From Minisyncoccota bacterium (lineage in GTDB: Bacteria > Patescibacteriota > Minisyncoccia > Phycocordibacterales > Zambryskibacteraceae): 64,000 nt of DNA. The stretch is from the NCBI GenBank assembly GCA_036517475.1, contig DATDVZ010000010.1, forward strand, positions 15,338 through 79,337, in the 5' to 3' direction. Both the position numbers and the translations under genes were made by a program. Below are positions 1 to 56,974 of this stretch, piece after piece. The notes below the pieces were generated by a model that was not told the DNA's origin, made no database searches, and saw only the letters and a list, made by a program, of their open reading frames with translations. Within the stretch, counting starts at the first letter, position 1. Each line of letters opens with the position of its first letter.

Positions 1-926
1 TCAAGAAAAAGAACACCTTTGTGGGCAAGGGTTGCTTCTCCCGGTTTAGGAGTGGCTCCGCCTCCGACAATTGAAACATAAGAAGATGTATGATGCGGTG
101 CTCTGAAAGGCGGGTCAATAATAAGCGAGCCAGAAAGTGTTCCCGCAACTGAATGAATTCCTGTCGCTTCAAGGATTTCATCAAAAGAGAGAGGTGGCAG
201 GATTCTGCTGAAAGCTTTTGCAAGCATCGTCTTGCCCGTGCCCGGCGGACCATAAAGAGCTACGTTGTGCCCGCCAGCAGCGGCAATTTCTAATCCTCTT
301 TTGGCCGACTCCTGCCCGCGAATATCTTCAAAATCAATTCCCTCGCCTTTTTTGCTTGGCGGAATCTTGGTTTTGGGCTGTACTGGGATTTGCAAGGCCT
401 CTTCTCTTGTCGTATCAACATGATTTAAAACTTCTTCAAGGGTTTCTACCCCATAGACTTCAATGCCGTCAATCAAAGCTGCTTCCTCGGCATTTTCCTT
501 CGGAACGAAAACTTTTTTAAACCCTTTCTCTTTTGCGTGTTTTACCAAAGGCAGTACACCATTAATTTTTCTGAGTTTTCCATCAAGCGAAAGTTCGCCC
601 AAAAAAATTATTTTTTCAGGGTCAAAATCAATTTCCTCTGCTGCCAGAAGATAGGCAAGAGCCATTCCCAGATCAAAGAACGGACCTTCCTTTTTGATAT
701 CTGCGGGAGCAAGAGAGATTACAACTTTCTGATTTTTATTTTTTGGAGATTTAAAACCGGAATTTTTTATTGCTGCTGAAATCCTGTCACGAGCTTCTTC
801 CACTGCTTTATCCGGAAGGCCCACAATTGCAAAACTATGCAGACCTTTTGAAAGATCCACTTCAATATCAATAATATGAGCTTTTAAAAAAGAAGTTTGC
901 GCGCTATGAACTTTAGCAAAAGACAT
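1..926 (-). CDS. Mg-chelatase-like AAA+ ATPase YifB/ComM family, N-terminal part (3' end runs off the window edge)
   Basis: Reverse-strand translation from ATG at 926-924: MSFAKVHSAQTSFLKAHIIDIEVDLSKGLHSFAIVGLPDKAVEEARDRI..., Lon-like N-domain then Walker A ALYGPPGTGKTMLAKAF. Frame open to position 1. Plus-strand ORFs 218-779 are shadow ORFs. Confidence 0.8.
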   Translation of the reverse strand, partial: MSFAKVHSAQTSFLKAHIIDIEVDLSKGLHSFAIVGLPDKAVEEARDRISAAIKNSGFKSPKNKNQKVVISLAPADIKKEGPFFDLGMALAYLLAAEEIDFDPEKIIFLGELSLDGKLRKINGVLPLVKHAKEKGFKKVFVPKENAEEAALIDGIEVYGVETLEEVLNHVDTTREEALQIPVQPKTKIPPSKKGEGIDFEDIRGQESAKRGLEIAAAGGHNVALYGPPGTGKTMLAKAFSRILPPLSFDEILEATGIHSVAGTLSGSLIIDPPFRAPHHTSSYVSIVGGGATPKPGEATLAHKGVLFL

Positions 927-1016
927 AAATCATTATTCATAAAACACAGAACATATACTGAAATTAATTATAAAAATAATATGAACTCTTATTTTTCATG
1001 TTTCATATTTAATGCT

Positions 1017-1388
1017 TTATTTACTCATGTGACTTCTACAAGTTGTGGCAGCTGGGTTTGCTTCCAGGCGGTCCTCTTCAATTTCTTCCCCACCCACGGA
1101 GCATATTCCATATTTACCAGTTTCAGTTTTTTTTAGAGCATCTTGGATTTCATTAAATCGGATTTCAAGCTGCTTTAAAATAGCGGTATTGTTCTCAAAC
1201 TCCTCAATTGTGTCTGCAACTTCATTTTCATCGGTGTTTAATCCTGTATCCATGACAGGAGGAGTTGCTTGCCAATCAGAAGGGTTTTCGGGGTTAATTC
1301 TGCCCACAGACTGAAGCTCTTTCTCCAAAAGAGCTTTTTCCTTTTCAAGTTTATCTTTAAAATATTTAAGTTTCTCTGAATCAAACAT
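1017..1388 (-). CDS. DksA/TraR-family C4 zinc-finger protein
   Basis: 123 aa, coiled-coil N-term, C-terminal CxxG...C motif (GKYGICSVGGEEIEEDRLEANPAATTC). Confidence 0.55.
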   Translation of the reverse strand: MFDSEKLKYFKDKLEKEKALLEKELQSVGRINPENPSDWQATPPVMDTGLNTDENEVADTIEEFENNTAILKQLEIRFNEIQDALKKTETGKYGICSVGGEEIEEDRLEANPAATTCRSHMSK

Positions 1389-15203: not shown

Positions 15204-15252
15204 AATTTCGGATTAATTTACACTGGTCGGCACCTCACTGGTATTCATTCGT

Positions 15253-15323: not shown

Positions 15324-15370
15324 AAAATAACTTTCAAATCCTATCATAGAGACAGAAGAGCAGCGAATTT

Positions 15371-16041: not shown

Positions 16042-16043
16042 AT

Positions 16044-38422: not shown

Positions 38423-39213
38423 TCTTCCATAAGAAAAAGTCATTAGGCCAAAATTTCCTTATAAATAAAGGGATTCTGGAGATAATTGCCAAAGAAGCAG
38501 AAATAAAAAAGGGGGAGATTGTAGTTGAAGTGGGCCCAGGTAGTGGGTATCTAACTCAAAGTCTTCTTGAGGCAGGAGCAGTAGTATTTGCGATAGAAAA
38601 AGATAACCGCCTGATACAAATTTTAAATGAAAAATTTACCAAAAAAATAAAAAATAAAAGATTAATTTTGATTAATGATGATATTCTAAAATTTAATTTT
38701 GCAAAATTAGTCAGAAGTAAAAAGTATAAAATTGTTGCAAATATTCCTTATTATATAACTGGTGCCTTGTTCAAAAAAATCTTTTCTCAAAAAAATCTAC
38801 CGAGTCTGGTTGTTCTTACGCTCCAGAAAGAGGTTGCAAAAAGAATAATTGTAATGGATGGTAAAGAAAGCATTTTATCAATTTCAGTTAAAGCATATGG
38901 CAAGCCAAAAATTGTAAAAATTGTCTCACGGGGAAGTTTTTCACCTGTGCCGAGTGTTGATTCTGCGATATTAAAAATTACCGATATCTCAAAAAACTTT
39001 TTTAAGGAATTTCCAGAGGAGAAATTTTTTAGTATTTTACATGCTGGATTTTCTTCAAAAAGAAAATTTTTAATTAGTAATCTTCAAAAAATTGAAAGTA
39101 AAGAGAAATTAGAAAAAATCTTTAACAGACTAAATATAAACAAAAAAATCCGCGCAGAAGATCTGGATTTAAATGAATGGAAAAAATTAACCACCATGCT
39201 TCATGATCTATGA
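38419..39213 (+). CDS. rsmA: 16S rRNA A1518/A1519 dimethyltransferase
   Basis: KSLGQNFLINKGIL, VVEVGPGSGYLT SAM motif. Confidence 0.9.
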   Translation: MIFHKKKSLGQNFLINKGILEIIAKEAEIKKGEIVVEVGPGSGYLTQSLLEAGAVVFAIEKDNRLIQILNEKFTKKIKNKRLILINDDILKFNFAKLVRSKKYKIVANIPYYITGALFKKIFSQKNLPSLVVLTLQKEVAKRIIVMDGKESILSISVKAYGKPKIVKIVSRGSFSPVPSVDSAILKITDISKNFFKEFPEEKFFSILHAGFSSKRKFLISNLQKIESKEKLEKIFNRLNINKKIRAEDLDLNEWKKLTTMLHDL

Positions 39214-39251
39214 TCTATGTTCTATGTTCTATGTTCTATGTTCTATGGTAA
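39196..39251. repeat. heptamer tandem array (atgcttc atgatct x2 atgttct x4 atggtaa) between convergent rsmA and the 39243 gene
   Basis: 8 units; overlaps the TGA of rsmA and the TAG of the minus-strand gene. Confidence 0.85.
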
Positions 39252-39662
39252 CGCTCCCGGCGCGCTTGTGCCCACTCTGGCAATTTGGCCAAATGAAGGA
39301 AGCGGGACACAAAAAGGAGGAAAACCAATCCAACATGATTGTACTGCCGGTACATAGTCACCCAGATGTGCTGTGGTTGGAATTCCAATAAAAAAATTGG
39401 CAAATAGAGTACTGATGCCAAGATTAAATGTCAGGGCTCCCGCAAAAGGAAAGGGTACCGGGGCGGGGTAAAGTGGGGCCATAAATATCCATAATCCAGG
39501 GGGTGGACAGGTACATGGAATAAAAAACTGAACAAACCCCCCAAAAGGGATACCTGTCGCAATATTTGATCCAGCCTGCCCAAAAGCCGAAAATGGAATC
39601 ACAAATATAAATATGATCAAAAATATTATTATTTTTTTTCTTGTAGATTGTTCCTTGTTCAT
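39243..39662 (-). CDS. hypothetical hydrophobic Pro/Phe-rich protein
   Basis: 139 aa, signal-like N-term. Confidence 0.3.
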   Translation of the reverse strand: MNKEQSTRKKIIIFLIIFIFVIPFSAFGQAGSNIATGIPFGGFVQFFIPCTCPPPGLWIFMAPLYPAPVPFPFAGALTFNLGISTLFANFFIGIPTTAHLGDYVPAVQSCWIGFPPFCVPLPSFGQIARVGTSAPGALP

Positions 39663-39672
39663 TGCTCCTTGT

Positions 39673-40701
39673 CTAATTAATTCTTAGTATAACCTTTTGG
39701 GGGTTAAGCGTCACACCGTGGGAGTTTTTTACAAAGAAATACAAATCAATTGACTGGCCCTGAAGATATTTAAATGCTTTTGCAAAATCACTTGCCTTTG
39801 GAAAATCCGAGAGATGAATTTTTATTTCACCCCCATTTGATACAACCCCTCCTAGATTTCCCAGAGACGACCAAACTTCATTTGAAGATTCAAAGTTGTC
39901 CCCTCTTAAAATTATTACATCCCCCAAACTTGAAACAGAGATAACTGAAGTTGAATTAAATGTCGGCGGATTCGTGGGATCTGGGGTCACTGTAAAAAAT
40001 TTCTCTTTAATCTGGTTTCTGCTGTTTCCTCTTTCATTCTCAATCCAGATATTATATTTACCAAGTTCGACGCTTGAAGGAACAATGAATTTCAAATTTT
40101 TACCCTCGCTGCTTTCCAAATTCTCCACAATTTTTTTATCGTCAAAATAAATTGAATTATTTTTTGTAAAATACCAACCTGTTATCTCAACAGTATCTCC
40201 CGGAGCTGCTTCAATTTTTGAAAAATTCAAAACCTGCGGTGGCTGTAAAAATAATTTATTAGTCAGAGGTTGTAAATCTGAATTCTGAAACTTTTGGTTT
40301 TGGTTTTCTGGTAACTGTGTGTTTGTTGTTTGTTGTTTGTTGTTAGTTGTTAGTTCATTTAGCTTTTTTCTCGTTAGTGGCCCCACATAACCAGTGCCTA
40401 CAAAACTTGTGTCATTTCCCACAATTTCTTCCCTGTAAAGATTTTGAAAACGTATCACAGCATCAAGTGTAAGTTTGCCGAAATATGTCGTTTCATTACC
40501 AAATGAGCCGTAGCCATTGTTAGAAACGATAGTCTTTGAATAACTGTTTAATATTTTCTGTAATTGCTTAACGTCTTCGACGTTATCTCCAATTCTTAAA
40601 TTACGGCTAAAAATAAAGTTCTGTTGGGCTTTGGAATCAGGAATCACGAATGAAGAATAAAGAATAAAAATTAAAGTAACCAGTAAAAATCTTCTAAGCA
40701 T
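39673..40701 (-). CDS. secreted protein with N-terminal peptidoglycan-binding-like domain and IPT/TIG-like repeats
   Basis: 342 aa; LRIGDNVEDVKQLQKILNS...GKLTLDAVIRFQ. Contains the TTNNKQQTTNTQ low-complexity stretch. Confidence 0.45.
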   Translation of the reverse strand: MLRRFLLVTLIFILYSSFVIPDSKAQQNFIFSRNLRIGDNVEDVKQLQKILNSYSKTIVSNNGYGSFGNETTYFGKLTLDAVIRFQNLYREEIVGNDTSFVGTGYVGPLTRKKLNELTTNNKQQTTNTQLPENQNQKFQNSDLQPLTNKLFLQPPQVLNFSKIEAAPGDTVEITGWYFTKNNSIYFDDKKIVENLESSEGKNLKFIVPSSVELGKYNIWIENERGNSRNQIKEKFFTVTPDPTNPPTFNSTSVISVSSLGDVIILRGDNFESSNEVWSSLGNLGGVVSNGGEIKIHLSDFPKASDFAKAFKYLQGQSIDLYFFVKNSHGVTLNPQKVILRIN

Positions 40702-45585: not shown

Positions 45586-46335
45586 ATGACTTTCACACAA
45601 CAACAAAAAAAAACTGCCTACATTTCGCTTAACCCAAGTGTTCAGTATTTTATAACTGACCCGGAAAGCAGAGAAATTTCAGAGAAAATTTCAAAACAAT
45701 ACTCACTTGATTTTGATCAGACAGATAATCTTGATGAGGAGATAGACAATACAATTTTAGGCCTCCAAAGTTTTAGAGAAATGATTATTAATCTTAGACA
45801 AAAACTTGGATTATCGGACGATAAAATAATTGAACTTGCTCGTGATCTTAAACAACAAATCTTTGACAAGTTGGATGAAATTAAAAAAGGAGAAATACAA
45901 TATCAAATTCCGGAAACTTTTATTTCGACACCCACACAGTTGAAAGCGAAAATTAACCCACCAACAACCTACAACTCACAACCAACAACTTATAAAGAAC
46001 CCAATCAAACAAATACTAAGCAAAATGCTTTGGAAAGGATGGATGGAGTTTTTAATAAGACAGCGCCGGCGCCGGGGAATTTACCGAGTCAACCAACAAC
46101 CGACAACAAACAACAAACAACAAACTTTCAAATTCCGAAAACTAAAGTAGTGGAGGAATATCATCAGGAATTAAAACCACCAACAACTAACAACCAACAA
46201 CTTACAACAAATAATAGACAACCTAATCAACCTATACAAAAATCACCCATGGAGAGGAAATTGGAGCAAAATCCAAATGTTATGAAAAGTTCATATGGTA
46301 ATAAACCAGATCCTTATCGCGAGTCACCACAATGA
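45586..46335 (+). CDS. Gln/Asn/Thr-rich low-complexity protein
   Basis: 249 aa; contains QLTTNNRQPNQP. Confidence 0.35.
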   Translation: MTFTQQQKKTAYISLNPSVQYFITDPESREISEKISKQYSLDFDQTDNLDEEIDNTILGLQSFREMIINLRQKLGLSDDKIIELARDLKQQIFDKLDEIKKGEIQYQIPETFISTPTQLKAKINPPTTYNSQPTTYKEPNQTNTKQNALERMDGVFNKTAPAPGNLPSQPTTDNKQQTTNFQIPKTKVVEEYHQELKPPTTNNQQLTTNNRQPNQPIQKSPMERKLEQNPNVMKSSYGNKPDPYRESPQ

Positions 46336-46745
46336 TATTCAAATTTCCGCAATATATTGATGTTGAAGACAAAATTTTCGGGCCGCTTACTATAAAGCAG
46401 TTCATTTATCTTCTAGGTGGGGCTGGAATTATCGTCACCATTTTCAGATTCTTGCCGGGTTTTATAGCCTTTTTTCTTGCTATACCAATAATTGCCCTGT
46501 CGCTTTCGCTTGCGTTTTGGAGAGTCAATAATCAACCTTTTATAAGTGTATTGGAATCCTTTATGAAATATGTCTTTGGGGAAAAGCTCTATATATGGAA
46601 AAAAGAAGCAAAAAAAATATCAAAAAAAGAACAAGAATCTATTAATCCACAGGTTTATATTCCAAAAGTTACTGATGGAAACCTTAAAAACTTGAAATGG
46701 AACATTGACGTTAAAAAATCACAGGACATAGAACCTGAGACATAG
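46332..46745 (+). CDS. small 2-TM protein, VirB3-like
   Basis: 137 aa; GPLTIKQFIYLLGGAGIIVTIFRFLPGFIAFFLAIPIIAL. Confidence 0.35.
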   Translation: MIFKFPQYIDVEDKIFGPLTIKQFIYLLGGAGIIVTIFRFLPGFIAFFLAIPIIALSLSLAFWRVNNQPFISVLESFMKYVFGEKLYIWKKEAKKISKKEQESINPQVYIPKVTDGNLKNLKWNIDVKKSQDIEPET

Positions 46746-46824
46746 AACATGGAACATGGGGCATGAGGCATGGAACATAAAACATGGAGCGTAAAACATT
46801 AAACATATAACAAGGAATATGGAA
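46727..46824. repeat. heptamer array, 14 units (catagaa cctgaga catagaa catggaa catgggg catgagg catggaa cataaaa catggag cgtaaaa cattaaa catataa caaggaa tATGgaa)
   Basis: begins inside the last codons of the 46332 gene (TAG in catagaa) and ends with the ATG of the 46819 gene. Confidence 0.85.
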
Positions 46825-47169
46825 AAAAGTTACAATGAGAGGTTGAAAAAATTAATAAATCAGTATGTCCATAAAGTTTATGATTACAGCGTTAACTTTC
46901 CAAAGAATGAAGTATTTGGACTAACTTCTCAACTCAAACGCTCTGCAATGTCTGTCGCATTGAACTATGTCGAGGGATACGCCAGAAGAAGAAAGCTTGT
47001 TTTTAAAAATTTTATTGAAATTTCCTACGGCTCATTGAAAGAAAGTGTTTATTTAGTTGAATTCTCGTATAATAGAAAGTACCTGAATATAAACCAATAT
47101 AAGGAACTAAACAATTTAGCAGAAGAAGTAGCTAAAATGCTTTGGGGAATTATGGATAAGTTAGACTAA
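46819..47169 (+). CDS. four-helix-bundle protein (23S rRNA intervening-sequence protein family)
   Basis: 116 aa; FPKNEVFGLTSQLKRSAMSVALNYVEGYARR...ISYGSLKES. Confidence 0.6.
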   Translation: MEKSYNERLKKLINQYVHKVYDYSVNFPKNEVFGLTSQLKRSAMSVALNYVEGYARRRKLVFKNFIEISYGSLKESVYLVEFSYNRKYLNINQYKELNNLAEEVAKMLWGIMDKLD

Positions 47170-47203
47170 TGGTCTATGTTCTATGATAAATGATCTATGA
47201 CTT
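47169..47203. repeat. heptamer array, 5 units (atggtct atgttct atgataa atgatct ATGactt)
   Basis: the last unit is the start codon of the 47197 gene. Confidence 0.8.
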
Positions 47204-47832
47204 TAAACGCAAAAGCAACACAAGAGTTTGTTCCAATTGAAGAGGTGCGTGACGGCATTATTGTCATGAAAGACAGCGGAATGCGCGCTGTTCTTCTGTG
47301 TTCTTCTCTGAATTTTTCACTCAAATCAGATGATGAGCGAACAGCAACCCTTCTGCAATTTCAGGACTTTTTGAATTCTCTGGATTTTTCGATTCAAATT
47401 TATATTGAGTCCCGCCGGCTTGATATCAGGCCGTATCTTGCGCTGTTGGAGAACCAGAAAAAGAATCAGACAAACAGTCTGATGAAAATACAGATTCAGG
47501 AATATATTGAATTTGTTAAAAGTTTCACTGAACAAACAAATATAATGAAAAAAAGTTTTTATGTTGTCGTGCCGTTTTCTCCAGCGATAATAAGACAAAA
47601 AGGAAACATTCTTTCAAACATATTGCCGTCACAGAAACAAACAAGCGAGAAAGAGTCCGCAAACTTTGAGGAGAGTCGTACCCAAATTGAACAGCGTCTC
47701 TCGGTTGTTGAACAAGGACTCATGCGCTGCGGTATAAGAGTTGCCAGACTCGGTACAGAAGCAATAGTTGAATTGTTCTATAAAATATTTAATCCGGGGG
47801 AAAGCGAAAAACCGATTCAGTTGAAGACATAG
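47197..47832 (+). CDS. VirB4/TraC N-terminal-domain-like protein (N-terminal fragment of a split VirB4)
   Basis: 211 aa; FVPIEEVRDGIIVMKDSGMRAVLLCSSLNFSLKSDDE...RLGTEAIVELFYKIFNP. Confidence 0.5.
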   Translation: MTLNAKATQEFVPIEEVRDGIIVMKDSGMRAVLLCSSLNFSLKSDDERTATLLQFQDFLNSLDFSIQIYIESRRLDIRPYLALLENQKKNQTNSLMKIQIQEYIEFVKSFTEQTNIMKKSFYVVVPFSPAIIRQKGNILSNILPSQKQTSEKESANFEESRTQIEQRLSVVEQGLMRCGIRVARLGTEAIVELFYKIFNPGESEKPIQLKT

Positions 47833-47947
47833 AACATTAAACATGAAACATAGAATATTAGACATAGAACATAAAACACTTGAATTGAAAGTCCGAATTC
47901 AAAGCATGTTTCATGCTTCATGTTCCATGACTAATGATAAATGACCA
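47828..47947. repeat. inverted heptamer array: 8 units in catagaa phase, central gaattgaaagtccgaattc, then 6 units in atgttct phase ending in the ATG at 47941
   Basis: imperfect palindrome about 120 bp. The TAG stop of the upstream gene is inside the first unit. Confidence 0.85.
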
Positions 47948-49770
47948 CAATGGGAATATTTGATTTTTTAAAAAAGAAAAAAAGTGAAAATTCATTAGCG
48001 AGTATATCTATTCTGCCCCATGAAATTTATGAGGCAAATACTCTTGATTTAAAGGATATTATCGCTCCCAGCGCCCTTAAGGTCGGGCCAAAGGATATTA
48101 ACCTCGGCGAAAAGATAATGCGCTCTTTCTTTGTTATTTCCTATCCTTCTTCTTTGGGAGAAAGCTGGTTTGCGCCGATAATAAATTTGGACAGAGTTTT
48201 TGATGTTGCTATATTCGTCCACCCTATTGAAACTTCAAAAATTCTCAAGAAATTTCAAAAAAAAGTCGCAGAAGTCCAGAGTCAGATCCATGAAAGAGAA
48301 GAGAAGGGGCTTGTGCGCGATCCCATGCTTGATATTGCCTACCAAGACCTGGAAAATCTGCGGGATCAGCTGCAGCAAGCGCAAGAAAAACTATTTGACG
48401 TAGGATTATATATTTCAATTTACGCTGATAACGAAAATGAGCTGGATAAAATTGAATCTGAAATTAAGTCCATTCTTGAGTCCAAACTTGTCTATATCAA
48501 GCCGGCTCTTTTCCAGCAACAAGAAGCATTTAAAAGCATCCTGCCTATGGGAGATGATATTATTGCGGTAAATTCAAAACTTAACTCCTCCCCGCTTTCA
48601 TCACTTTTCCCTTTTATATCATTTGATCTTTCTACCGAGGAGGGAATTCTTTATGGCATTAACAGACATAACTCATCTCTTGTACTTTTTGACCGTTTTT
48701 CGCTTGAAAATTACAACTCAATAATTTTTGCAAAATCCGGTGCCGGCAAAAGCTATGCCACCAAGCTTGAAATCCTAAGGACACTAATGTTTGATACGGA
48801 AGTCATAGTAATTGACCCGGAAAGAGAATATGAATTCATGGCTGACGCCATCGGCGGAAGATATTTTAAAATTTCTCTGACCTCCGAACACCACATCAAC
48901 CCTTTTGATCTTCCGCCACCCGGACCGGATGAATCATTCGCCAATATTTTGCGCTCCAATATTATTAATCTTGTCGGACTCTTCCGCCTGATGATGGGGG
49001 GTCTCAGCGCCGAGGAAGATGCAATAATTGACAGGGCAATTACTGAAACTTACGCTCTCAAAGACATAACACCAGATTCGGATTTTACAAATATTGAACC
49101 TCCGCTTCTTACTGACTTTGAGCTAGTTCTATCTGGAATGGAGGGCGGAGCATCTTTGGCCCAGCGTCTTACAAAATACACAAAGGGTACGTGGGCCGGG
49201 TTTATAAACCGGCCGACAAATGTGGATATAAACAAGAAATTTGTTGTTTTTTCTTTGCGTGACATGGAAGACGAACTCAAGCCCATTGCAATGTATATCG
49301 TCACTCATTACATCTGGAGTGCTGTTAGAAAAGAACTTAAAAAAAGGCTTTTGGTTATTGACGAAGCTTGGTGGATGATGAAATCGGAAGATACCGCCTC
49401 ATTTGTGCTCAATATTGCAAAAAGGGGTAGAAAATATTTCTTAGGTCTTGCCACAATAACGCAGGATGTGGACGATTTCCTTGCCTCTCCCTACGGCACT
49501 CCTATCATTACCAATTCCTCAATTCAACTGCTCTTGAAACAGTCTCCGACAGCCATTGACCGCCTTCAGGGGGTTTTTAATCTGACTGATGAAGAAAAAT
49601 ATCTTTTACTTGAATCAAATGTTGGGGAAGGAATATTTTTTGCCGGGCTAAAGCACGTGGCGATAAAAATCGTTGCCTCTTATACCGAAGATCAGATTAT
49701 AACTTCCGATCCTGCCCAGATATTGGCAATACAAAAAGCAAAACAAGAACTCGAATCTGCTTCCGCGTAA
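47941..49770 (+). CDS. VirB4/TrbE/CagE-family T4SS ATPase (C-terminal ATPase part)
   Basis: 609 aa; Walker A SGAGKSYATK, Walker B LLVIDEAWWMM, RGRKYFLGLATITQ. Confidence 0.7.
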   Translation: MTTMGIFDFLKKKKSENSLASISILPHEIYEANTLDLKDIIAPSALKVGPKDINLGEKIMRSFFVISYPSSLGESWFAPIINLDRVFDVAIFVHPIETSKILKKFQKKVAEVQSQIHEREEKGLVRDPMLDIAYQDLENLRDQLQQAQEKLFDVGLYISIYADNENELDKIESEIKSILESKLVYIKPALFQQQEAFKSILPMGDDIIAVNSKLNSSPLSSLFPFISFDLSTEEGILYGINRHNSSLVLFDRFSLENYNSIIFAKSGAGKSYATKLEILRTLMFDTEVIVIDPEREYEFMADAIGGRYFKISLTSEHHINPFDLPPPGPDESFANILRSNIINLVGLFRLMMGGLSAEEDAIIDRAITETYALKDITPDSDFTNIEPPLLTDFELVLSGMEGGASLAQRLTKYTKGTWAGFINRPTNVDINKKFVVFSLRDMEDELKPIAMYIVTHYIWSAVRKELKKRLLVIDEAWWMMKSEDTASFVLNIAKRGRKYFLGLATITQDVDDFLASPYGTPIITNSSIQLLLKQSPTAIDRLQGVFNLTDEEKYLLLESNVGEGIFFAGLKHVAIKIVASYTEDQIITSDPAQILAIQKAKQELESASA

Positions 49771-49807
49771 TTTTTAATTTCAAATTAAAAATTATATAAT
49801 CAATTAA

Positions 49808-50536
49808 ATGAACCTTGATTCAGATATAAATGAAAATATAGGGAGAGGCCACTCTGCTCTCATCAGAAGTCCGGAAATTGACAGGCAGAGGGCAGAACAG
49901 AAAAAGCGCGCCGGACAAGTTCTTCAGAGTGCCGGTAAAGTCCTATCAAAAACGGGGGAAGGAGCAATAGTGGGAGTTCCAATGCAAGTTGCAGGAACAA
50001 TTTTAAGAAATAGAAACAATAAACAAAGAACGGGGGACGAGGAACAAGAAACAATTGGAACAACAGTGCCAAGTATTACAAGTGAATTTTCAAAGGATTC
50101 TAAAATTGTAAACGAATCGGCACAAAGATCGGAAAAAAGAAATAGAGTGACATTAACAACTACATATCTAATGTTTGGAACGGCTCTCTTTTTTGATTCC
50201 CTGCAATTTGTATTCAGTTTTGTGCCATTTCTTGGCTGGATATTGTCGGGCATCGTTGGTATTTTTGCCTGGTTAACTTTCTATACATGGACCTCAATAA
50301 AGGGCTGGGGCTGGTCAGATACTGTCAAAAAGATTGCAATTAATTGGGCATTGCCTTTGGTAGAAGTTTTTCCCATTATTAACGGCCTGCCACTGTGGAC
50401 ATTGCGAGTAGCAATACAAATTGCAATTATTAAAGCAGAAGATGTCCTATACAACAGTACTCAAGGAAAGGTGGATGTAAAAAATATACTCAATTTCAAA
50501 AGCAAGTATGGGGCAATCTTGAAACCTAGAACATAG
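49808..50536 (+). CDS. membrane protein (3-4 TM in the C-terminal half)
   Basis: 242 aa; stop TAG inside catagaa. Confidence 0.35.
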   Translation: MNLDSDINENIGRGHSALIRSPEIDRQRAEQKKRAGQVLQSAGKVLSKTGEGAIVGVPMQVAGTILRNRNNKQRTGDEEQETIGTTVPSITSEFSKDSKIVNESAQRSEKRNRVTLTTTYLMFGTALFFDSLQFVFSFVPFLGWILSGIVGIFAWLTFYTWTSIKGWGWSDTVKKIAINWALPLVEVFPIINGLPLWTLRVAIQIAIIKAEDVLYNSTQGKVDVKNILNFKSKYGAILKPRT

Positions 50537-50574
50537 AACATGCTTCATGCTCTATGTTTTATGTTCCATGATCA
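50525..50574. repeat. inverted heptamer array (cctagaa catagaa | atgcttc atgctct atgtttt atgttcc atgatca)
   Basis: seen directly. Confidence 0.8.
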
Positions 50575-50592: not shown

Positions 50593-51582
50593 ATGAGAAA
50601 AATTTTACTTCTTCTGACTGCATTTTTTTTAGTTAATGTCGGGATTATCTTTGCACAGATCAATATCAGCGACATTATCCCCAGTTTCAGTATAAAAATT
50701 TTTCCGGAAATCCCTGTTTCCGGAGACAAAATCAATATTTCAGTTGACAGTTTCTCGGGAATCAATATTGATTCTGCCTCCATTCGTTGGAGTATTAACA
50801 GCAAAATAGTTAAAGAGGGTGTTGGAGAAAAAAATTTCTCCTTTCAGGTAGGAGAATCAGGAAGTGAGACGGAGATCAGAGTGGATATCAACCCTCAAAA
50901 AGGACTGCCTTTTTCAAAAACAATTATTATTCGCCCTTCCGAAATTGATCTAGTATGGGAGGCAGATACATCAGTCCCCCTCCTTTACAGTGGAAAATCG
51001 CTTTTTTCCAGAGAAAGTCTCCTTAGATTTGAAGCTATTCCACATTTTGTTAGAAGAGATAAGACAGAAATCCCAAAAGAATCTTTAATTTATGAATGGA
51101 GAGCAAATAACAAGCTTTACCCAAATTCTTCAGGATATGGAAAAAACTTCTTTTCAATTTCCGGATCGCAATTTGAACAGGTTGAAACAATTGAGGTCAC
51201 GGCTCGTTCAACAGATGGGGGGTTTATTGCAAAGAAATTCGTAACAGTTGAACCTGTTTCTCCGGAAGTTTTAATTTATGAGAACAATCCGCTTCAGGGA
51301 ATACTTTATAATAGAGATGTCGGCTCACAATACAAGCTTTCAAATCAGGAAATCACCTTTAGAGCCGCCCCTTATTATTTTTCCACAAAGGATATCTTCT
51401 CATTTACATTTGACTGGCTTATAAACGGAGCAAAAGTAAGTGCTCCAGAAAAAGACGAGATGACATTAAGAGTGGAAGATGACTCTGCCGGATCATCACG
51501 AATATCAATTCAGGTCAAAAATCCAAAAAAAATTTTCCAGAATTCTAAAAAGGAATTCCTAATAAATTATGGCAATAACTAA
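50593..51582 (+). CDS. secreted beta-rich protein
   Basis: 329 aa, signal peptide. Confidence 0.35.
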   Translation: MRKILLLLTAFFLVNVGIIFAQINISDIIPSFSIKIFPEIPVSGDKINISVDSFSGINIDSASIRWSINSKIVKEGVGEKNFSFQVGESGSETEIRVDINPQKGLPFSKTIIIRPSEIDLVWEADTSVPLLYSGKSLFSRESLLRFEAIPHFVRRDKTEIPKESLIYEWRANNKLYPNSSGYGKNFFSISGSQFEQVETIEVTARSTDGGFIAKKFVTVEPVSPEVLIYENNPLQGILYNRDVGSQYKLSNQEITFRAAPYYFSTKDIFSFTFDWLINGAKVSAPEKDEMTLRVEDDSAGSSRISIQVKNPKKIFQNSKKEFLINYGNN

Positions 51583-52708
51583 CTCACAACTTACAACCAA
51601 CAACCGACAACCAAAATTGCTTTTGATTTTATTTTTATTTCTCTTCCTTTTTCCTTTTTCCTTTGTCAGCGCTGAAATACCACAGTCTGCCAGAGGTAAG
51701 CAATGTTTTGTTTTTGGATATGGCGGAGCAGCAAGTCTTTTCCCCTGTGAAAATCCACCAGCACAAGTGGTCGGCAGAGACTGTGTTGTTTGTGGTAACC
51801 CATCAAATGGTCAGTGTCCAACGCCAATTTCTACAACAAACGGAGGTGGGACAACATTCATATGCGAAGTAGGAACTGCTACTCCACCACCAAACAATCC
51901 TCCACCAACAAGTCTAGGATATATTCCATTGGCCCCACTTCCAGGTGATACACCAGGTCAACCTATAAAAGTTACTGACTATATTCCGAAGGTTTTTAGA
52001 CTTGCCATTGCTGTAGCAGGAGCACTGGCAGTAATTATGATTACAATCGGCGGAATTGAATACATTACTTCCGAAACTATTAACGGCAAAAAGGACGGCA
52101 AAGAAAAAATAACAAACGCTCTGGTTGGACTTCTTTTGGCAATCGGTTCCTGGATTATTTTAAATACGATTGCTCCCGACAGATTCACCCAATTTGATTT
52201 GAGTACGATAAGAACACCGCCACAAATTACAACCGCAACAACCACACCACCATCGCCTGGAAGCTGGCCGAGTGATCAGGGCGTCAGACAAAGGCTTGGG
52301 CTTAGCGGAATATCCATTAATAATAGTAACTGCACTTATATTGGACAGGTCGGATGCACTAGCGTCTATGGATTGAGAGAGAATATTATAAGTGGTCTTG
52401 AGCAGTTAGTGCGGGATTGTTTCGGCCAGTGCAATATCGTAATAACCGGCGGCACTGAATGGTGGCTGCACGGTAACAGAATTGATATCAATTCTACCCA
52501 GCATCGACCAGGTGGAAATGCTGTTGATTTGTCAAAAAATGATTCAGTATTAAATAACTTCATCATGCGTTTCCCGAAGATAGGTTCAGCAACTGGCGGA
52601 AACGGCTGCGCTACAGGCCAAGGATACAATGTTGGCGGAAAAATTTATGTTGATGAGATAAGTTCAGGGGCAAGCACCGGTCCTCATTGGCATATATGTT
52701 TTCCATAA
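51569..52708 (+). CDS. fusion: VirB2/TrbC-like two-helix membrane hairpin plus C-terminal peptidase M15-like (VanY/L-Ala-D-Glu peptidase-type) domain
   Basis: 379 aa; Cys-rich secreted N-region, FRLAIAVAGALAVIMITIGGIEYITS...ALVGLLLAIGSWIILNTI, then STQHRPGGNAVD (SxHxxGxAxD) and GPHWH. Confidence 0.45.
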   Translation: MAITNSQLTTNNRQPKLLLILFLFLFLFPFSFVSAEIPQSARGKQCFVFGYGGAASLFPCENPPAQVVGRDCVVCGNPSNGQCPTPISTTNGGGTTFICEVGTATPPPNNPPPTSLGYIPLAPLPGDTPGQPIKVTDYIPKVFRLAIAVAGALAVIMITIGGIEYITSETINGKKDGKEKITNALVGLLLAIGSWIILNTIAPDRFTQFDLSTIRTPPQITTATTTPPSPGSWPSDQGVRQRLGLSGISINNSNCTYIGQVGCTSVYGLRENIISGLEQLVRDCFGQCNIVITGGTEWWLHGNRIDINSTQHRPGGNAVDLSKNDSVLNNFIMRFPKIGSATGGNGCATGQGYNVGGKIYVDEISSGASTGPHWHICFP

Positions 52709-54078: not shown

Positions 54079-54792
54079 CTACACTTTGAATTTTCTTCTG
54101 ATGAGTTTTTCCTGCACTAACGTAAAAATATTGCTTGTAAACCAATATAGAGCCACCACTCCTGAAATACTATAGGAAATAAAAAGGACAATCACAGGAA
54201 AAAAATATCTCATTTGGATATTCATACTTCTGGCCAGATCACTCTGAAAACTGCGTTTGCCGTCTGTGGATATTGGCGGGGCGGAAACCCGCATCTGGAA
54301 AAAGCTCGATACACCAGCAGCAATAGCAAGTATCCAGCTCTTGCCAGTGATATCAATAAATCCGAGAAAGTTCATGTTAATTTTTTCTGGCAAAGGAATA
54401 AATGAATATTTAAGTGTCTCATCAACAGCCGGTAGACCAGATTTTAAAAATATAAAATAGAGAGCAAAAATTATCGGAAGTTGTATGAGAATGGGTAAAA
54501 TACTTCCAAAGGGGCTGACTTTTTTATTTTTATACAATTCCCATGTTCTCTTAGCTTGTTCCTGCTTGTCAGTTTTATATTTTTCTCTAATTTTGGTGAG
54601 CTCAGGCTCAATCTTTTTCATTTCAATTCCTGCAACTGTAGCTTTGCGTGATAAGGGAAAAAGTATGAATTTCACAATAAGAGTAAAGAATATGATAGCG
54701 AAACCAGCATCCAACCAAGGAAAAGTATGTATAAAGAGAATAAGGCCATTATATAGAGGCTGATAGAAGACATCATGGAAAATAGATTTCAT
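54079..54792 (-). CDS. yidC: membrane protein insertase YidC (short form)
   Basis: 237 aa; LFPLSRKATVAGIEMKKIEPELTKI...PILIQLPIIFALY. Confidence 0.85.
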   Translation of the reverse strand: MKSIFHDVFYQPLYNGLILFIHTFPWLDAGFAIIFFTLIVKFILFPLSRKATVAGIEMKKIEPELTKIREKYKTDKQEQAKRTWELYKNKKVSPFGSILPILIQLPIIFALYFIFLKSGLPAVDETLKYSFIPLPEKINMNFLGFIDITGKSWILAIAAGVSSFFQMRVSAPPISTDGKRSFQSDLARSMNIQMRYFFPVIVLFISYSISGVVALYWFTSNIFTLVQEKLIRRKFKV

Positions 54793-54872
54793 CCTTTGTT
54801 GAAAAATGGTACCACTCTTATGAGCCTTGCCACTTTATTTAATAATATTTCCCCATTGAAATATTAGTAATA

Positions 54873-55202
54873 TTATATCAGACCGCTTTTGCTAAGAAGA
54901 CTCTCTATATCATCATACAAATCTTCTTTAGATATATTACCCAACCTGGATTTAAAATAAAATGCTAACAAAAAACCATCGGTGATTTTTTTCAGAAAAC
55001 TTTTTATCTGCCCGTAACCCCTTCTTCTGAGACGGTTGCGGTCAGCTGCATTCTTTGCAACTTTTTTTGAAACAATAAAAGTAACTTTTGAATTTCCACT
55101 GGCGCGAGACACTTTCAATGACAAAAAATTCCCGCTGAAAGTTTTTCCACGTGACAAAAGATCGAAATCACTTCTCTTTATCCTTCTGTTCTTTGGAAGC
55201 AT
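54873..55202 (-). CDS. rnpA: ribonuclease P protein component
   Basis: 109 aa; Arg/Lys-rich, RNR-like motif. Confidence 0.85.
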   Translation of the reverse strand: MLPKNRRIKRSDFDLLSRGKTFSGNFLSLKVSRASGNSKVTFIVSKKVAKNAADRNRLRRRGYGQIKSFLKKITDGFLLAFYFKSRLGNISKEDLYDDIESLLSKSGLI

Positions 55203-55251
55203 AAATAAACCATTTGTATTTAAATGTATTTAAAAGTTTTAAATCTGGAAA

Positions 55252-55386
55252 TTAAACAGAAATTAACTTTCTGCCTTTTTGCCTTCGTCTCTTTAGTGTT
55301 CGTCGTCCGCCTGAGGATTTTTTTCTTTTAATAAACCCGTGAGCTCGGCTTCTTTTTCTTTTTTTTGGTTGATATGTACGAGACAT
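55252..55386 (-). CDS. rpmH: 50S ribosomal protein L34 (44 aa; not in the ORF track)
   Basis: [44 protein letters not shown]; classic rpmH-rnpA-yidC order. Confidence 0.85.
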
Positions 55387-55388
55387 AG

Positions 55389-55433
55389 AACTAACATAAT
55401 AACAAACAACTTATAACTTACAACTAGTAACTG
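55389..55433 (-). repeat. heptamer array 5' of rpmH on the minus strand (cagttac tagttgt aagttat aagttgt ttgttat tatgtta gttct-ATG)
   Basis: AGTT/TGTT core at 7-nt spacing. Confidence 0.5.
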
Positions 55434-55624
55434 AATTTCTTAAAAAAGTTTGCTTATTTGCCTAAATTTTTATTGATAAAAATTCAAACAGGTCAAGTTA
55501 TGATGTCCACTTTTTTTCCACTGTTTATCAACATAAAACATGCTTTTTTTCAAGTTTTTTAATATTTGGAGAAGTATATACTACGGGTACTATAACCCTG
55601 TTAATTTCATTCTTTTACTAAAAC

Positions 55625-56974
55625 ATGCCAGATCACAAAGAACTATGGAACTCCGTCCTGGTAGAAATGGAATTAAGTGTTTCCAAACCCAACTTTAACA
55701 CCTGGTTTAAAGACACCAATATCGTCCGACATGACGATAACACGGTTTATCTGGCTGTTCCTAACGCTTTTGTGAAAGAGTGGCTCCATAATAAATACCA
55801 CAACACAATATTGCGCCATATCCGTTCCATTGTGCCCTCCGTCCATTCAGTGGAATACATTATTACAAGGGAAGATGGTAAAAAAACCGAAACAAGGAGG
55901 GAAGAGATGTTGATTGCGCCCGTCCAAGAACTTCCTCTAAGCGATTATTACATCAACAAGGAGGATAATCTGAACCCCAGATACACATTTGAAAGTTTTA
56001 TAGTGGGTCCGTTCAATGAATTGGCACACGCTGCTTCCCAAGCTGTAATAAAAAAGCCGGGATTAACATATAACCCTCTTTTCATTTACGGAAATACGGG
56101 TCATGGCAAAACTCACCTCATACAGGCAGTTGGAAACCATATTAAAAACTTGTATAAGGATAAAAAAGTGATCTATGTTACCTCCGAAAAATTCGCTTCT
56201 GATGTGATAGGTGGAATTCAGAGCGGAAAAATTGCCCAAATCAAAGAAAAGTACAGAAAATATGATGTTTTAATCATGGATGACATCCAGTTTCTCTCCA
56301 GAACGGAAAAGACTCAGGAGGAGCTATTTCACCTCTTCAATACTCTTTTTGACAACAACAAACAAATTGTATTTTCTTCTGACAAACACCCCAATCTCAT
56401 ACCGGGAATAGAGGACCGCCTTAAAGGTAGATTTTCTGCAGGAATGACTGTAGATATTCCCGCCCCAGATCAGGATTCGCGAGCGGCAATAATAAAAGCC
56501 AAAACAACACAGAATAATTTCTCGCTTTCACAGGAAGTAATTGATTTTCTTGCTTTAAGTATTATTGGAAATATACGTGATCTGGAGGGGGTAATTAATC
56601 TCATAATCTGCCAGTCCCAACTTAAAGGTAGGGAACTCAGCCTCAATGAGGTCAAAAACACCATAAAGGCAAGCGCCAAACCAAAGAAGTCAGTGTCCAT
56701 TAAGGAGGTTGTTAAAATGGTCGCAGATTACTATAGAATCGAGGAAAACAACATTTACGAAAAAACCAGAAGAAAGGAAATAATAAAACCAAGACAAGTT
56801 GCTATGTATATATTAAGGGAGGATTTTAATATTTCTTACCCATCGATTGGACAGAAGTTGGGTGGTAGGGATCATACAACCGTAATTCACTCTTGTGAAA
56901 AAATCAAATCAGAAGTAAAAGATGATCAGATGCTGGCTCAAGAGATTGCACAACTACGTTCAATGATTGTTTAA
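55625..56974 (+). CDS. dnaA: chromosomal replication initiator DnaA
   Basis: 449 aa; AAA+ (GNTGHGKTHL), C-terminal DNA-binding domain. Confidence 0.95.
   Translation: MPDHKELWNSVLVEMELSVSKPNFNTWFKDTNIVRHDDNTVYLAVPNAFVKEWLHNKYHNTILRHIRSIVPSVHSVEYIITREDGKKTETRREEMLIAPVQELPLSDYYINKEDNLNPRYTFESFIVGPFNELAHAASQAVIKKPGLTYNPLFIYGNTGHGKTHLIQAVGNHIKNLYKDKKVIYVTSEKFASDVIGGIQSGKIAQIKEKYRKYDVLIMDDIQFLSRTEKTQEELFHLFNTLFDNNKQIVFSSDKHPNLIPGIEDRLKGRFSAGMTVDIPAPDQDSRAAIIKAKTTQNNFSLSQEVIDFLALSIIGNIRDLEGVINLIICQSQLKGRELSLNEVKNTIKASAKPKKSVSIKEVVKMVADYYRIEENNIYEKTRRKEIIKPRQVAMYILREDFNISYPSIGQKLGGRDHTTVIHSCEKIKSEVKDDQMLAQEIAQLRSMIV

What the first reader, a model, noticed from the sequence alone, without database searches (positions are those of the whole stretch)
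46727..50574. Family of tandem degenerate heptanucleotide arrays (ATGTTCY)n / (RGAACAT)n punctuating the T4SS-like cluster genes
Four arrays (46727-46824, 47169-47203, 47828-47947, 50525-50574) occupy every intergenic gap between the 46332 and 50593 genes. Each array overlaps the stop of the upstream gene: TAG embedded in CATAGAA, giving C-termini ...PET*, ...LKT*, ...PRT*. TAG is rare elsewhere in this TAA-dominated window. Each array also runs directly into the ATG of the downstream gene, creating multiple out-of-frame upstream ATGs at 7-nt spacing. Two arrays are internally inverted (palindromic). A 7-nt unit cannot be in-frame, so this looks like a non-coding microsatellite or binding-site array. 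Candidate roles are slipped-strand phase variation of the surface/T4SS genes, translational coupling or re-initiation control, a recombination or cassette boundary, or a protein-binding iteron. This is not CRISPR (unit too short, no spacers).
Basis: seen in the sequence. Interest (0 to 1): 0.75.

Follow-up and report, generated by a model that had tools for sequence, protein, structure and literature searches.

The report
Heptamer-repeat arms of IVS-like gene cassettes
The heptamer arrays are the inverted repeat arms of a small inserted cassette carrying a "23S rRNA intervening-sequence protein" gene, plus gene-less copies of the same repeat, wedged exactly between neighbouring genes; the same gene-plus-heptamer pairing recurs in distant bacterial phyla, linking two long-unexplained features of bacterial genomes.

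Summary
The arrays are real and far beyond chance. They are phased copies of RnCATnn: C-A-T is near invariant in 46 units and three positions vary freely. They are organised as inverted pairs. One pair (46725-46815 / 47167-47203) encloses a PF05635/TIGR02436 four-helix-bundle gene (46819-47169). Two pairs are gene-less hairpins, and a fifth array lies at 39194-39249.

Close relatives (VirB4 87-88% identical) have empty junctions, with stop and start 1-8 nt apart, so these are lineage-specific insertions. Across 80 related loci, 20 of 20 PF05635 ORFs lie on the operon strand at varying junctions. They are flanked by period-7 arrays with element-specific cores (p about 1e-10 against other ORFs). 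The same architecture appears in cyanobacterial plasmids, Verrucomicrobiota, Desulfobacterota and IMG/VR contigs. It is also reported, with GACAGAT heptamers, in the Coxiella 23S rRNA IVS.

Slipped-strand phase variation is not supported: eight assemblies carry identical arrays, and the units are degenerate. The best reading is IVS-type selfish cassettes and their ORF-less derivatives at cistron junctions. Their arms fold so that the upstream stop pairs with the downstream start. Whether the pentameric protein binds the heptamers is untested.

The parts
46725..46815 (+). 5' arm of element E1: 13 phased units of RnCATnn (GACATAG AACCTGA GACATAG AACATGG ...). It contains the PrgI stop codon TAG at 46743-46745 and runs to the Shine-Dalgarno-like AAGGA upstream of the enclosed gene.
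   Evidence: Inverted-repeat pair I1. 5' side of the closing stem (46741-46760).
46819..47169 (+). Enclosed gene: 116-aa four-helix-bundle protein, also called 23S rRNA intervening-sequence protein or S23p.
   Evidence: PF05635 E=1.8e-26. TIGR02436 E=1.2e-26, and only a sub-threshold match to the DGR Avd model. PDB relatives 2gsc and 2rld, each deposited with five chains.
47167..47203 (+). 3' arm of E1: five phased ATGnnnn units (ATGGTCT ATGTTCT ATGATAA ATGATCT ATG). The last ATG (47197-47199) is the start codon of the TraC-like gene.
   Evidence: In one search it pairs with 46741-46760, with the AUG at 47197-47199 pairing with the CAU at 46741-46743.
47825..47947 (+). Element E2, a gene-less hairpin. 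The 5' arm (47825-47881) has 8 RnCATnn units and contains the TraC-like stop TAG at 47830-47832. The loop holds a small palindrome. The 3' arm (47904-47947) has 6 ATG units and ends just before the VirB4 start at 47950 (alternative start 47941).
   Evidence: (pair I2, 85% complementary). The homologous junction is 1-8 nt long in the closest relatives and holds PF05635 cassettes in L032, L029, L042, L051 and L024.
50516..50574 (+). Element E3, a gene-less hairpin with a 3-nt loop. The 5' arm contains the stop TAG (50534-50536) of the 242-aa gene. The 3' arm has 5 phased ATGs. The next gene starts at 50593.
   Evidence: pair I4, 81% complementary. (dG -22.4 kcal/mol, z=-2.79, 0 of 200 shuffles as stable)..
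39194..39249 (-). Element E4, a single array of 8 units with no partner. Read on the minus strand it is ACCATAG (AACATAG)x4 ATCATAG ATCATGA AGCATGG. It supplies the TAG stop of the minus-strand ORF 39243-39662, and its other end encodes the last codons of ksgA (38419-39213, + strand).
   Evidence: 97% matches; score 28 of 28. One search shows no hairpin (z +0.6 and +0.8).
49768..49794 (.). Small perfect 13-nt palindrome made of two TAATTTn units and two AAATTAn units, in the VirB4|242-aa gap. Same design, different core; membership of the family is uncertain.
   Evidence: pair I14, 100% complementary. (AAT x4 at period 7).
917..1025 (.). Weak, degenerate nnnCATn / nATGnnn pair next to the junction between the dksA-like gene and the Mg-chelatase-like gene. 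Possible decayed member of the family.
   Evidence: the same site seen in L219 at 11589-11605, where the last ATG unit is the start of the downstream gene.

Best explanation
The arrays are the terminal inverted-repeat arms of a small selfish cassette of the kind known from 23S rRNA intervening sequences (IVS), together with gene-less copies of the same arms. The cassette is a PF05635/TIGR02436 four-helix-bundle (S23p) gene enclosed by two arms that can pair.

Each arm is a tandem array of a phased 7-nt motif, here RnCATnn. The elements have inserted exactly at cistron junctions of a tightly packed operon, where stop and start codons were originally 0-8 nt apart.

How it works:
- Shown by comparison: the cassette has no evident promoter of its own and always lies on the operon strand.
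- Predicted by folding: the two arms pair in the transcript. The closing stem of E1 pairs the upstream stop UAG with the downstream start AUG. This restores the ancestral proximity of the two cistrons.
- Inferred by analogy with IVS: the stem offers a double-stranded site where RNase III could cut the cassette RNA out.
- Follows from arithmetic: a period that is not a multiple of three, with TAG in the forward unit and ATG in the reverse unit, gives a stop and a start in every frame. Insertion is therefore tolerated whatever the local reading frame.
- Inferred from conservation only: the invariant core with free spacer positions indicates that the motif itself is recognised, most plausibly by the pentameric cassette protein.

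Gene-less hairpins and single arrays are non-autonomous or decayed copies.
For: Anatomy in the window:
- Arrays form inverted pairs, and one pair encloses the PF05635 gene.
- The MFE and centroid folds of the 501-nt segment both close with 46741-46760 paired to 47173-47199 (z=-2.25; 0 of 100 shuffles as stable). UAG 46743-46745 lies opposite CUA 47195-47197, and AUG 47197-47199 lies opposite CAU 46741-46743.

Insertion:
- In 75 related loci the TraC-like|VirB4 gap has a median of 8 nt. Larger gaps cluster around 95-194 nt (hairpins) and 413-611 nt (cassettes).
- The PrgI|TraC-like gap behaves the same way.
- The three closest relatives (VirB4 87-88% identical) have empty sites.

Association of the gene with arrays:
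- 20 of 20 PF05635 ORFs in the T4SS loci lie on the operon strand, at three different junctions, and three or four of them are truncated.
- Their flanks have higher period-7 self-similarity than those of 721 other ORFs: Mann-Whitney p=6e-10 upstream and 9e-11 downstream. Either flank scores 18 of 28 or more in 15 of 20 against 80 of 721 (sequences).
- Independent samples agree. Five of six cyanobacterial plasmid genes have arrays. So do 21 of 27 IMG/VR genes. All five PF05635 ORFs found near (AACATnn)4 arrays in GTDB genomes lie 0-32 nt from the array.
- The Coxiella 23S IVS has an S23p ORF, a 28-bp terminal stem cut by RNase III, and 2-3 GACAGAT heptamers (plus a degenerate copy) upstream of the ATG (PMC4990558).

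Motif constraint and dispersal:
- C-A-T is kept in 44-45 of 46 units, while positions 2, 6 and 7 carry about 0.45 bits.
- The same family occurs at non-T4SS junctions in the same genome.
Against: - No transposition mechanism or target-site duplication was seen. A 116-aa helical protein is not an obvious recombinase.
- Folding the sense strand is not favoured over the antisense strand in 28 hairpins (11 of 28; Wilcoxon p=0.34). The two window hairpins fold better as antisense. Selection for a sense-RNA stem is therefore not demonstrated.
- E4 and many arrays in other phyla have no inverted partner, so pairing cannot be the whole function.
- Only 5 of 120 (AACATnn)4 loci carry a PF05635 gene within 8 kb.
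- The window protein does not cluster with the other AACAT-core proteins.
- RNase III cleavage, expression of the protein and any protein-repeat binding are untested.
- In relatives, arrays of similar design also bracket a GxxExxY gene, so the arms are not exclusive to PF05635.
Confidence: 0.72

Rival explanations
1. The arrays are primarily a regulon of binding sites. The pentameric four-helix-bundle protein encoded at 46819-47169 binds runs of about five RnCAUnn units in the mRNA (or in single-stranded DNA), much as TRAP binds phased triplets. It thereby controls termination, re-initiation or stability at the T4SS junctions. Mobility is secondary. This overlaps with the best explanation rather than excluding it.
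For: - Invariant 3-4-nt core with free spacer positions.
- Homologues 2gsc and 2rld are each deposited with five chains, and PMC4990558 describes the Xanthomonas protein as a toroidal homopentamer.
- Arms next to the gene often have about 4-6 units.
- All arrays seen in this genome share one core with the arms of the single resident gene.
- Protein similarity tracks the core in most families.
- Arrays without a partner exist.
Against: - No binding data exist for any member of the family.
- Co-variation of protein and core is also expected from simple co-inheritance.
- The window protein is only 34% identical to its nearest neighbour in the set and does not group with the other AACAT-core proteins.
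- Most array loci in other phyla have no gene within 8 kb.
- The closest relatives run the same operon without any arrays, so the host does not need such regulation.
Confidence: 0.25
2. Slipped-strand phase variation: gain or loss of units switches expression of the T4SS or surface genes.
For: - Tandem short units, one array nearly perfect.
- Heptamer copy number varies between Coxiella strains (PMC4990558).
- Heptamer simple-sequence-repeat phase variation exists in Haemophilus (PMC12721329, listed).
Against: - Arrays are identical in eight assemblies from different samples, including two SNP haplotypes.
- Units are degenerate, 67-76% matches in TRF, which is a poor substrate for slippage.
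- The arrays sit between a stop and a start and provide both in all frames, so a length change does not shift a reading frame.
- No promoter spacing is involved.
Confidence: 0.03
3. Host-beneficial structural elements with no link to mobility: REP-like hairpins that terminate transcription, or that protect upstream mRNA segments from 3' exonucleases and so set differential expression within the operon.
For: - E3 and E2 are predicted hairpins placed after stop codons.
- The arrays are intergenic and dispersed.
Against: - No U-tract follows them, and none is picked up by the terminator scan.
- The hairpins are modest (E2 z=-1.6) and there is no sense-strand bias.
- The closest relatives lack them at the same junctions.
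- This does not explain the enclosed gene or the phased invariant core.
Confidence: 0.1
4. Functionless decayed microsatellites produced by polymerase slippage, which favours 7-nt units. The link with PF05635 genes is incidental.
For: - Heptamer simple sequence repeats are over-represented in many bacteria, and slippage related to the polymerase footprint has been proposed as the cause (PMC4692102).
- Long perfect arrays exist in other phyla.
Against: - Decay would be uniform across the unit, but three positions are near invariant and three are free.
- The arrays occur as inverted pairs.
- The statistical association with PF05635 holds in four independent samples.
- The arrays appear as whole units at sites that are empty in the closest relatives.
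Confidence: 0.07

Closest known systems
23S rRNA intervening sequences carrying an S23p ORF (Coxiella burnetii, Leptospira; PMC4990558)
   Same: - Same protein family enclosed (PF05635).
- The ORF lies in the loop of a stem formed by terminal inverted repeats.
- The element is co-oriented with, and presumably transcribed as part of, the host transcript.
- Tandem heptamers lie directly upstream of the ORF's ATG (GACAGAT x2-3 plus a degenerate copy in Coxiella).
- The ORFs tend to decay.
   Different: - The host site is an intercistronic junction of a protein-coding operon, not helix 25 or 45 of 23S rRNA. There is no rRNA in the window.
- Both arms are heptamer arrays. The stem is imperfect (74-85% complementary), whereas the Coxiella stem is 28 bp and near perfect.
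- Gene-less copies are dispersed in the genome.
- RNase III excision is not shown here.
Over-represented intergenic heptanucleotide repeats: cyanobacterial STRR (Calothrix and Anabaena; own knowledge and PMC4692102), GGGAATC of Xanthomonas and GGGGAYT of Nostoc (PMC4692102), TAACTGA of Beggiatoaceae, Cyanobacteria and Bacteroidetes (PMC4679880)
   Same: - 7-nt tandem units that are intergenic and lie close to ORF ends.
- Genome-specific unit sequence.
- Often found in convergent inverted pairs (70 pairs in Xanthomonas campestris pv. campestris).
- Function unknown.
   Different: - Those reports describe mostly near-perfect repeats and did not connect them with PF05635 genes. No mention of S23 or 'intervening' was found in either paper.
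- Here the units are degenerate around an invariant core, and one pair encloses the gene.
REP/REPIN sequences with their RAYT transposase genes
   Same: - A dispersed, genome-specific family of short palindromic doublets at gene boundaries.
- A single-copy cognate gene is itself flanked by the repeats in inverted orientation.
- Gene and repeat co-diverge.
   Different: - The enclosed protein is a four-helix bundle, not an HUH/Y1 transposase.
- The arms are tandem heptamers rather than a unique 20-40-nt palindrome.
- No mobility mechanism is known.
bAvd, the accessory protein of diversity-generating retroelements
   Same: Homologous four-helix-bundle fold (PF22296 E=2.5e-8).
   Different: - The match to the Avd equivalog model is far below threshold (25.7 against 80 bits).
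- No Pfam reverse-transcriptase domain was reported for any gene called within about 10 kb of the cassette; template and variable repeats were not searched for.

Membership tests
IVS-type S23p element | Encloses an ORF of the PF05635/TIGR02436 family | tested here: met
   PF05635 E=1.8e-26. TIGR02436 93 bits against a cut-off of 24.
IVS-type S23p element | Terminal inverted repeats that close a stem around the ORF | tested here: met
   Pair I1, 31 nt and 74% complementary. The closing stem is present in both the MFE and the centroid fold, z=-2.25. This is a prediction only.
IVS-type S23p element | Inserted in a 23S rRNA helix (25 or 45) | tested here: not met
   The element lies between the PrgI and TraC-like genes. 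Rfam finds only tRNAs in the window.
IVS-type S23p element | Excised from the host transcript by RNase III | not testable with these tools
   This needs RNA end mapping or an in vitro cleavage assay. No RNase III signature motif was found in the 64-kb window, which says nothing about the rest of the genome.
IVS-type S23p element | Tandem heptamers directly upstream of the ORF start, as described for Coxiella | tested here: met
   13 units at 46725-46815, ending 3 nt before the ATG. Coxiella description in PMC4990558.
Intergenic heptanucleotide SSR families (STRR-like) | Tandem 7-nt units that are intergenic, dispersed and genome-specific | tested here: met
   Five sites in the window plus two in a further 8.6 kb, all at gene boundaries.
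Intergenic heptanucleotide SSR families (STRR-like) | Near-perfect unit identity | tested here: inconclusive
   Only the array at 39194-39249 is near perfect (97%). The others show 67-76% matches with an invariant core.
Phase-variable contingency locus | Unit-number polymorphism between strains or within a population | tested here: not met
   The arrays are identical in eight assemblies. Raw reads were not examined.
Phase-variable contingency locus | Repeat placed so that a length change alters the reading frame or promoter spacing | tested here: not met
   The arrays lie between a stop and a start and carry stops and starts in all frames. No promoter is associated with them.
REPIN-RAYT system | Cognate gene flanked by the dispersed repeat in inverted orientation | tested here: met
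REPIN-RAYT system | Cognate gene encodes an HUH/Y1 (RAYT) transposase | tested here: not met
   The gene is PF05635.
Intrinsic terminator | GC-rich stem followed by a U-tract | tested here: not met
   None of the arrays is reported by the terminator scan.
Diversity-generating retroelement | Avd together with a reverse transcriptase and template/variable repeats | tested here: not met
   The Avd model scores 25.7 bits against a cut-off of 80. No Pfam reverse-transcriptase domain is reported for any called gene within about 10 kb. Template and variable repeats were not searched for.
CRISPR array | Repeats of 23 nt or more separated by unique spacers | tested here: not met
   The units are 7 nt long and head to tail.

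The most novel reading that the evidence does not exclude
PF05635/TIGR02436 four-helix-bundle pentamers are the sequence-specific partners of bacterial heptanucleotide repeat arrays. Together they would form a widespread, so far unrecognised class of selfish intercistronic elements. The autonomous form is a gene between inverted heptamer arms. The non-autonomous forms are hairpins and single arrays with the same genome-specific core. The 23S rRNA IVS would be just one insertion niche for this class. The class would also account for much of the long-noted excess of heptamer repeats (STRR, GGGAATC, TAACTGA and others).
Probability: 0.3. Interest if true: 0.85.

Novelty: new variant of a known kind. 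Interest (0 to 1): 0.68.

Why it matters
Two old puzzles would become one testable problem. The first is what the "23S rRNA intervening-sequence proteins" do; they were first described in the early 1990s and have no assigned function. The second is why heptanucleotide repeats are over-represented next to bacterial genes; the cyanobacterial STRR repeats were reported in 1990 and also have no assigned function. Both dates are from my own recollection of the literature.

The data here show the gene and the repeats travelling together in at least five phyla, inserted with base-level precision between coupled cistrons. This gives concrete experiments: protein-repeat binding, RNase III processing and translational-coupling reporters. 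It also gives an annotation rule: PF05635 genes and their arms are insertions, not operon members. For CPR genomes it explains odd intergenic expansions in otherwise compact operons.

Tried and rejected
- **Sense-RNA selection (G:U test).** I folded the sense and antisense strands of 28 hairpins. There was no bias (11 of 28; p=0.34), so I do not claim a selected mRNA stem.
- **Exact 4-mer chain metric for flanking arrays.** It worked (9 of 17 against 4 of 739) but undercounted degenerate arrays, so I replaced it with lag-7 self-similarity.
- **Locating the source genome with the GTDB scan for (AACATnn)4.** I sampled about 15.6 kb of additional sequence from the same scaffold through two protein look-ups instead.
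- **Profile search of viral contigs with a 16-sequence alignment.** It failed because no stretch was conserved enough. A 7-sequence alignment worked.
- **Known RNA families and terminators.** Rfam found only tRNAs and the terminator scan found nothing at the arrays.
- **Target-site duplications.** I looked for them by comparing empty and filled junctions and found none.
- **RNase III gene.** The signature motif was not found in the window. This is uninformative for the whole genome.
- **Literature.** Searches for a published link between PF05635 or four-helix-bundle genes and heptamer repeats found only the passing remark on Coxiella heptamers. The library covers open-access papers only, so absence is not proof.
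- **CRISPR, DGR and phase variation** were considered and rejected; see the membership tests.

Full report
**1. The observation**

Tandem Repeats Finder reports period 7 or 14 at each. CAT or ATG recurs at exact 7-nt spacing in runs of 3 to 8, against 0.34 such runs per shuffled window. A four-unit match score to AGAACAT reaches 21-28 of 28; 19 of 20 shuffles peaked at 18-20 and one reached 22.

The three upstream genes do end at a TAG inside CATAGAA. The downstream ATGs lie in or just after the reverse-type arrays.

Four points need correcting:
- A fifth array, the best preserved, lies at 39194-39249 between convergent genes.
- The VirB4|242-aa gap holds a different small palindrome rather than this family.
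- TAG is not rare. It ends 14 of 55 long ORFs.
- A stop in the forward array and a start in the reverse array follow automatically. A 7-nt unit containing TAG or ATG presents it in all three frames.

**2. Anatomy**

The arrays are inverted pairs:
- 46727-46757 pairs with 47169-47199 across 411 nt.
- 47825-47851 pairs with 47906-47932.
- 50516-50542 pairs with 50546-50572.

The first pair encloses ORF 46819-47169. This is a 116-aa PF05635 "23S rRNA intervening sequence protein" (E=1.8e-26), which also matches TIGR02436 "four helix bundle protein". Its solved relatives are 2gsc and 2rld, each deposited with five chains.

The surrounding genes are a T4SS-like operon: PrgI, TraC-like, VirB4-like and pilin-like. 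The organism is a Paceibacterota (Parcubacteria) bacterium close to Ca. Zambryskibacteria, known from groundwater metagenomes.

When all 46 units are aligned in register, C-A-T is kept in 44-45 units and position 1 is always a purine. Positions 2, 6 and 7 carry only about 0.45 bits. This is a phased motif, RnCATnn, under constraint. A uniformly decaying microsatellite would not look like this.

**3. The arrays are insertions**

I collected 80 related loci through the VirB4 protein.
- The TraC-like|VirB4 gap has a median of 8 nt. Typical junctions read TAAATG or TAAtATG.
- Larger gaps fall around 95-194 nt and 413-611 nt.
- The PrgI|TraC-like gap behaves the same way.

The middle class consists of hairpins made of inverted short-period arrays. 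The largest class consists mostly of PF05635 cassettes.

The three closest relatives (VirB4 87-88% identical) have empty junctions of 1-8 nt at TraC-like|VirB4. They have no arrays at PrgI|TraC-like. The window's elements were therefore acquired in its own lineage.

Eight independent assemblies of that lineage, including two SNP haplotypes, carry identical arrays.

**4. The gene and the arrays go together, well beyond this lineage**

A local profile found 20 PF05635 ORFs or fragments in the T4SS loci. All 20 lie on the operon strand. They sit at three different junctions, and three or four are truncated.

Their flanks carry inverted arrays with element-specific cores such as TAGGnnn, AGCTnnn, CTAATTn and ACAATnn. 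A few have periods of 8-9 nt.

Lag-7 self-similarity of their flanks exceeds that of 721 other ORFs. Mann-Whitney p is 6e-10 upstream and 9e-11 downstream. Either flank scores 18 of 28 or more in 15 of 20, against 80 of 721.

Four independent samples agree:
- **GTDB genomes.** By my own estimate, roughly one match would be expected by chance. Only five of these loci contain a PF05635 ORF. All five ORFs lie 0-32 nt from the array. One is a perfect bracket in a Verrucomicrobiota genome.
- **Plasmids.** A tblastn search of plasmids hit almost only cyanobacteria. Five of six genes examined have heptamer arrays on one or both sides. Two of these genes sit between cas10 and cmr3, and between cas6 and cas4.
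- **IMG/VR contigs.** 21 of 27 relatives have a period-7 array on at least one flank. By eye, most of the 27 also carry inverted short-period arrays.
- **Literature.** The Coxiella 23S rRNA IVS encloses an S23p ORF within a 28-bp terminal stem that RNase III cuts. It has two or three GACAGAT heptamers (plus a degenerate copy) immediately upstream of the ATG, and the number varies between strains (PMC4990558).

Protein similarity tracks the core in most families. The window's protein is an outlier in that comparison.

**5. Dispersal in the source genome**

Besides the T4SS sites and the ksgA site, 8.6 kb just outside the window contains two more CAT/ATG hairpin pairs at gene boundaries. Another 7 kb contains none. 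A weak pair lies at 917-1025.

The family is therefore a dispersed intergenic repeat occurring roughly once per 10 kb. It is not T4SS-specific, but it does respect gene boundaries.

In other phyla, (AACATnn)n arrays lie inside long ORFs in 28% of cases, against 76% for random placement. Half are within 30 nt of an ORF end.

**6. How it probably works**

The 501-nt segment folds with a closing stem, 46741-46760 paired with 47173-47199.
- The stem appears in both the MFE and the centroid structures (z=-2.25; 0 of 100 shuffles as stable).
- At its base the PrgI stop UAG (46743-46745) pairs with CUA (47195-47197).
- There also, the TraC-like start AUG (47197-47199) pairs with CAU (46741-46743).

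The fold thus recreates the stop-start proximity of the empty site. A terminating ribosome would unmask the downstream start. This is a prediction, not a demonstration.

By analogy with IVS, the stem could be an RNase III substrate. That step is inferred.

Several results count against an RNA-only account:
- Sense strands do not fold better than antisense strands in 28 hairpins (p=0.34). The window's two hairpins fold better as antisense.
- The 39194-39249 array has no partner.
- Many arrays elsewhere are single.

The invariant core with free spacers argues that the motif itself is recognised. The pentameric cassette protein is the obvious candidate, but this is untested.

No target-site duplication or recombinase was found, so the means of spread is unknown.

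**7. Comparison with known systems**

The nearest known thing is the S23p-bearing 23S rRNA IVS. It shares the same protein family, an enclosing stem, co-orientation with the host transcript, and heptamers before the ATG. The defining rRNA location is not met here, and excision is untested. I therefore file this as a variant, not a member.

The arrays also belong descriptively with the over-represented intergenic heptamer repeats of cyanobacteria, Xanthomonas and Beggiatoaceae (PMC4692102, PMC4679880). The function of those repeats is unknown. Neither paper contains the words 'S23' or 'intervening'.

The logic resembles REPIN-RAYT, in which a dispersed doublet family has a cognate gene flanked by the same repeats. 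Here, however, the protein is not a transposase.

Phase variation, CRISPR, DGR and intrinsic terminators each fail a tested defining feature.

**8. Verdict**

The phase-variation idea is not.

The feature is a new variant of a known kind. It points to a general pairing of PF05635 genes with heptamer arrays. I found this pairing described nowhere in the open-access papers searched, apart from the passing remark on the Coxiella heptamers.

Noticed in passing
window 46087-46131, 46174-46209, 51580-51616, 40314-40361 (- strand), 55397-55432: A second period-7 family with core ACAAC, (nnACAAC)n. Two copies lie inside ORF 45586-46335, where they encode a T/Q/N/P-rich linker; the C-terminal DPYRE motif downstream is conserved in relatives. 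One copy lies at the junction 50593..51582 | 51569..52708. One lies inside ORF 39673-40701. One is intergenic upstream of dnaA. In relative L028 an ACAAC-type pair brackets a PF05635 gene (4147-4518). These may be stop-free arrays absorbed into coding sequence.
   Followed up: partly
L039 4704-5201; L049 1130-1534: At the PrgI|TraC-like junction of two relatives, inverted ACTAAT/ACGAAT short-period arrays bracket a GxxExxY protein gene (TIGR04256, E=2.4e-19) instead of a PF05635 gene. The array-arm design is therefore shared by at least one other small-gene cassette.
   Followed up: partly
L040 4238-4760 and 5401-6013; L058 4779-5366; solo copies in L061, L044, L073, L074, L069: A GC-rich palindrome (TGTCATTCCCGCGAAAGCGGGAATCCAG and its complement) brackets small ORFs that look like GIY-YIG nuclease genes, judged by eye only; the one I tested matched no NCBIfam model. 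They sit at the same T4SS junctions. The palindrome also occurs alone as a hairpin. This is a third kind of cassette using these junctions.
   Followed up: no
window 39641-39671 (- strand): A weak ACAAGGA-type period-7 array lies between the minus-strand ORFs 39673-40701 and 39243-39662. It contains the ATG of the latter.
   Followed up: no
window 47941 vs 47950: The VirB4 start is ambiguous. Gene callers chose 47941 (609 aa) in some assemblies and 47950 (606 aa) in others, from identical DNA. The N-termini of relatives (MGIFDF.., MSLFDLF..) favour 47950. The extra ATG at 47941 is contributed by the array.
   Followed up: partly
L217 (Picosynechococcus plasmid) and L218 (Pseudanabaena plasmid): Four-helix-bundle genes with heptamer arrays are wedged between cas10 and cmr3 of a type III-B operon, and between cas6 and cas4. 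In L218 the two arrays, (CTAAAAG) with at least 14 units and (CCAAAAG) with at least 10, are direct rather than inverted.
   Followed up: partly
L093-L212 (GTDB genomes): (AACATnn)n arrays of 4-23 units occur in more than 120 species of many phyla. Many form close inverted pairs, for example L110, L113 and L156.
   Followed up: partly
L219 13810-13851 and 15079-15149 (same genome, outside the window): Two further CAT/ATG hairpin pairs of the window's family. One lies between convergent genes (a 138-aa ORF and a LysM/M23 peptidase). The other lies just upstream of a UvrD-like helicase gene.
   Followed up: yes
window 13809-16115 (- strand): A cluster of six tRNA genes. No rRNA or other Rfam family is present in the window.
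   Followed up: no
window 54079-56974: The T4SS-like operon ends about 1.6 kb from the yidC-rnpA-(rpmH)-dnaA-dnaN region, that is, next to the likely replication origin.
   Followed up: no
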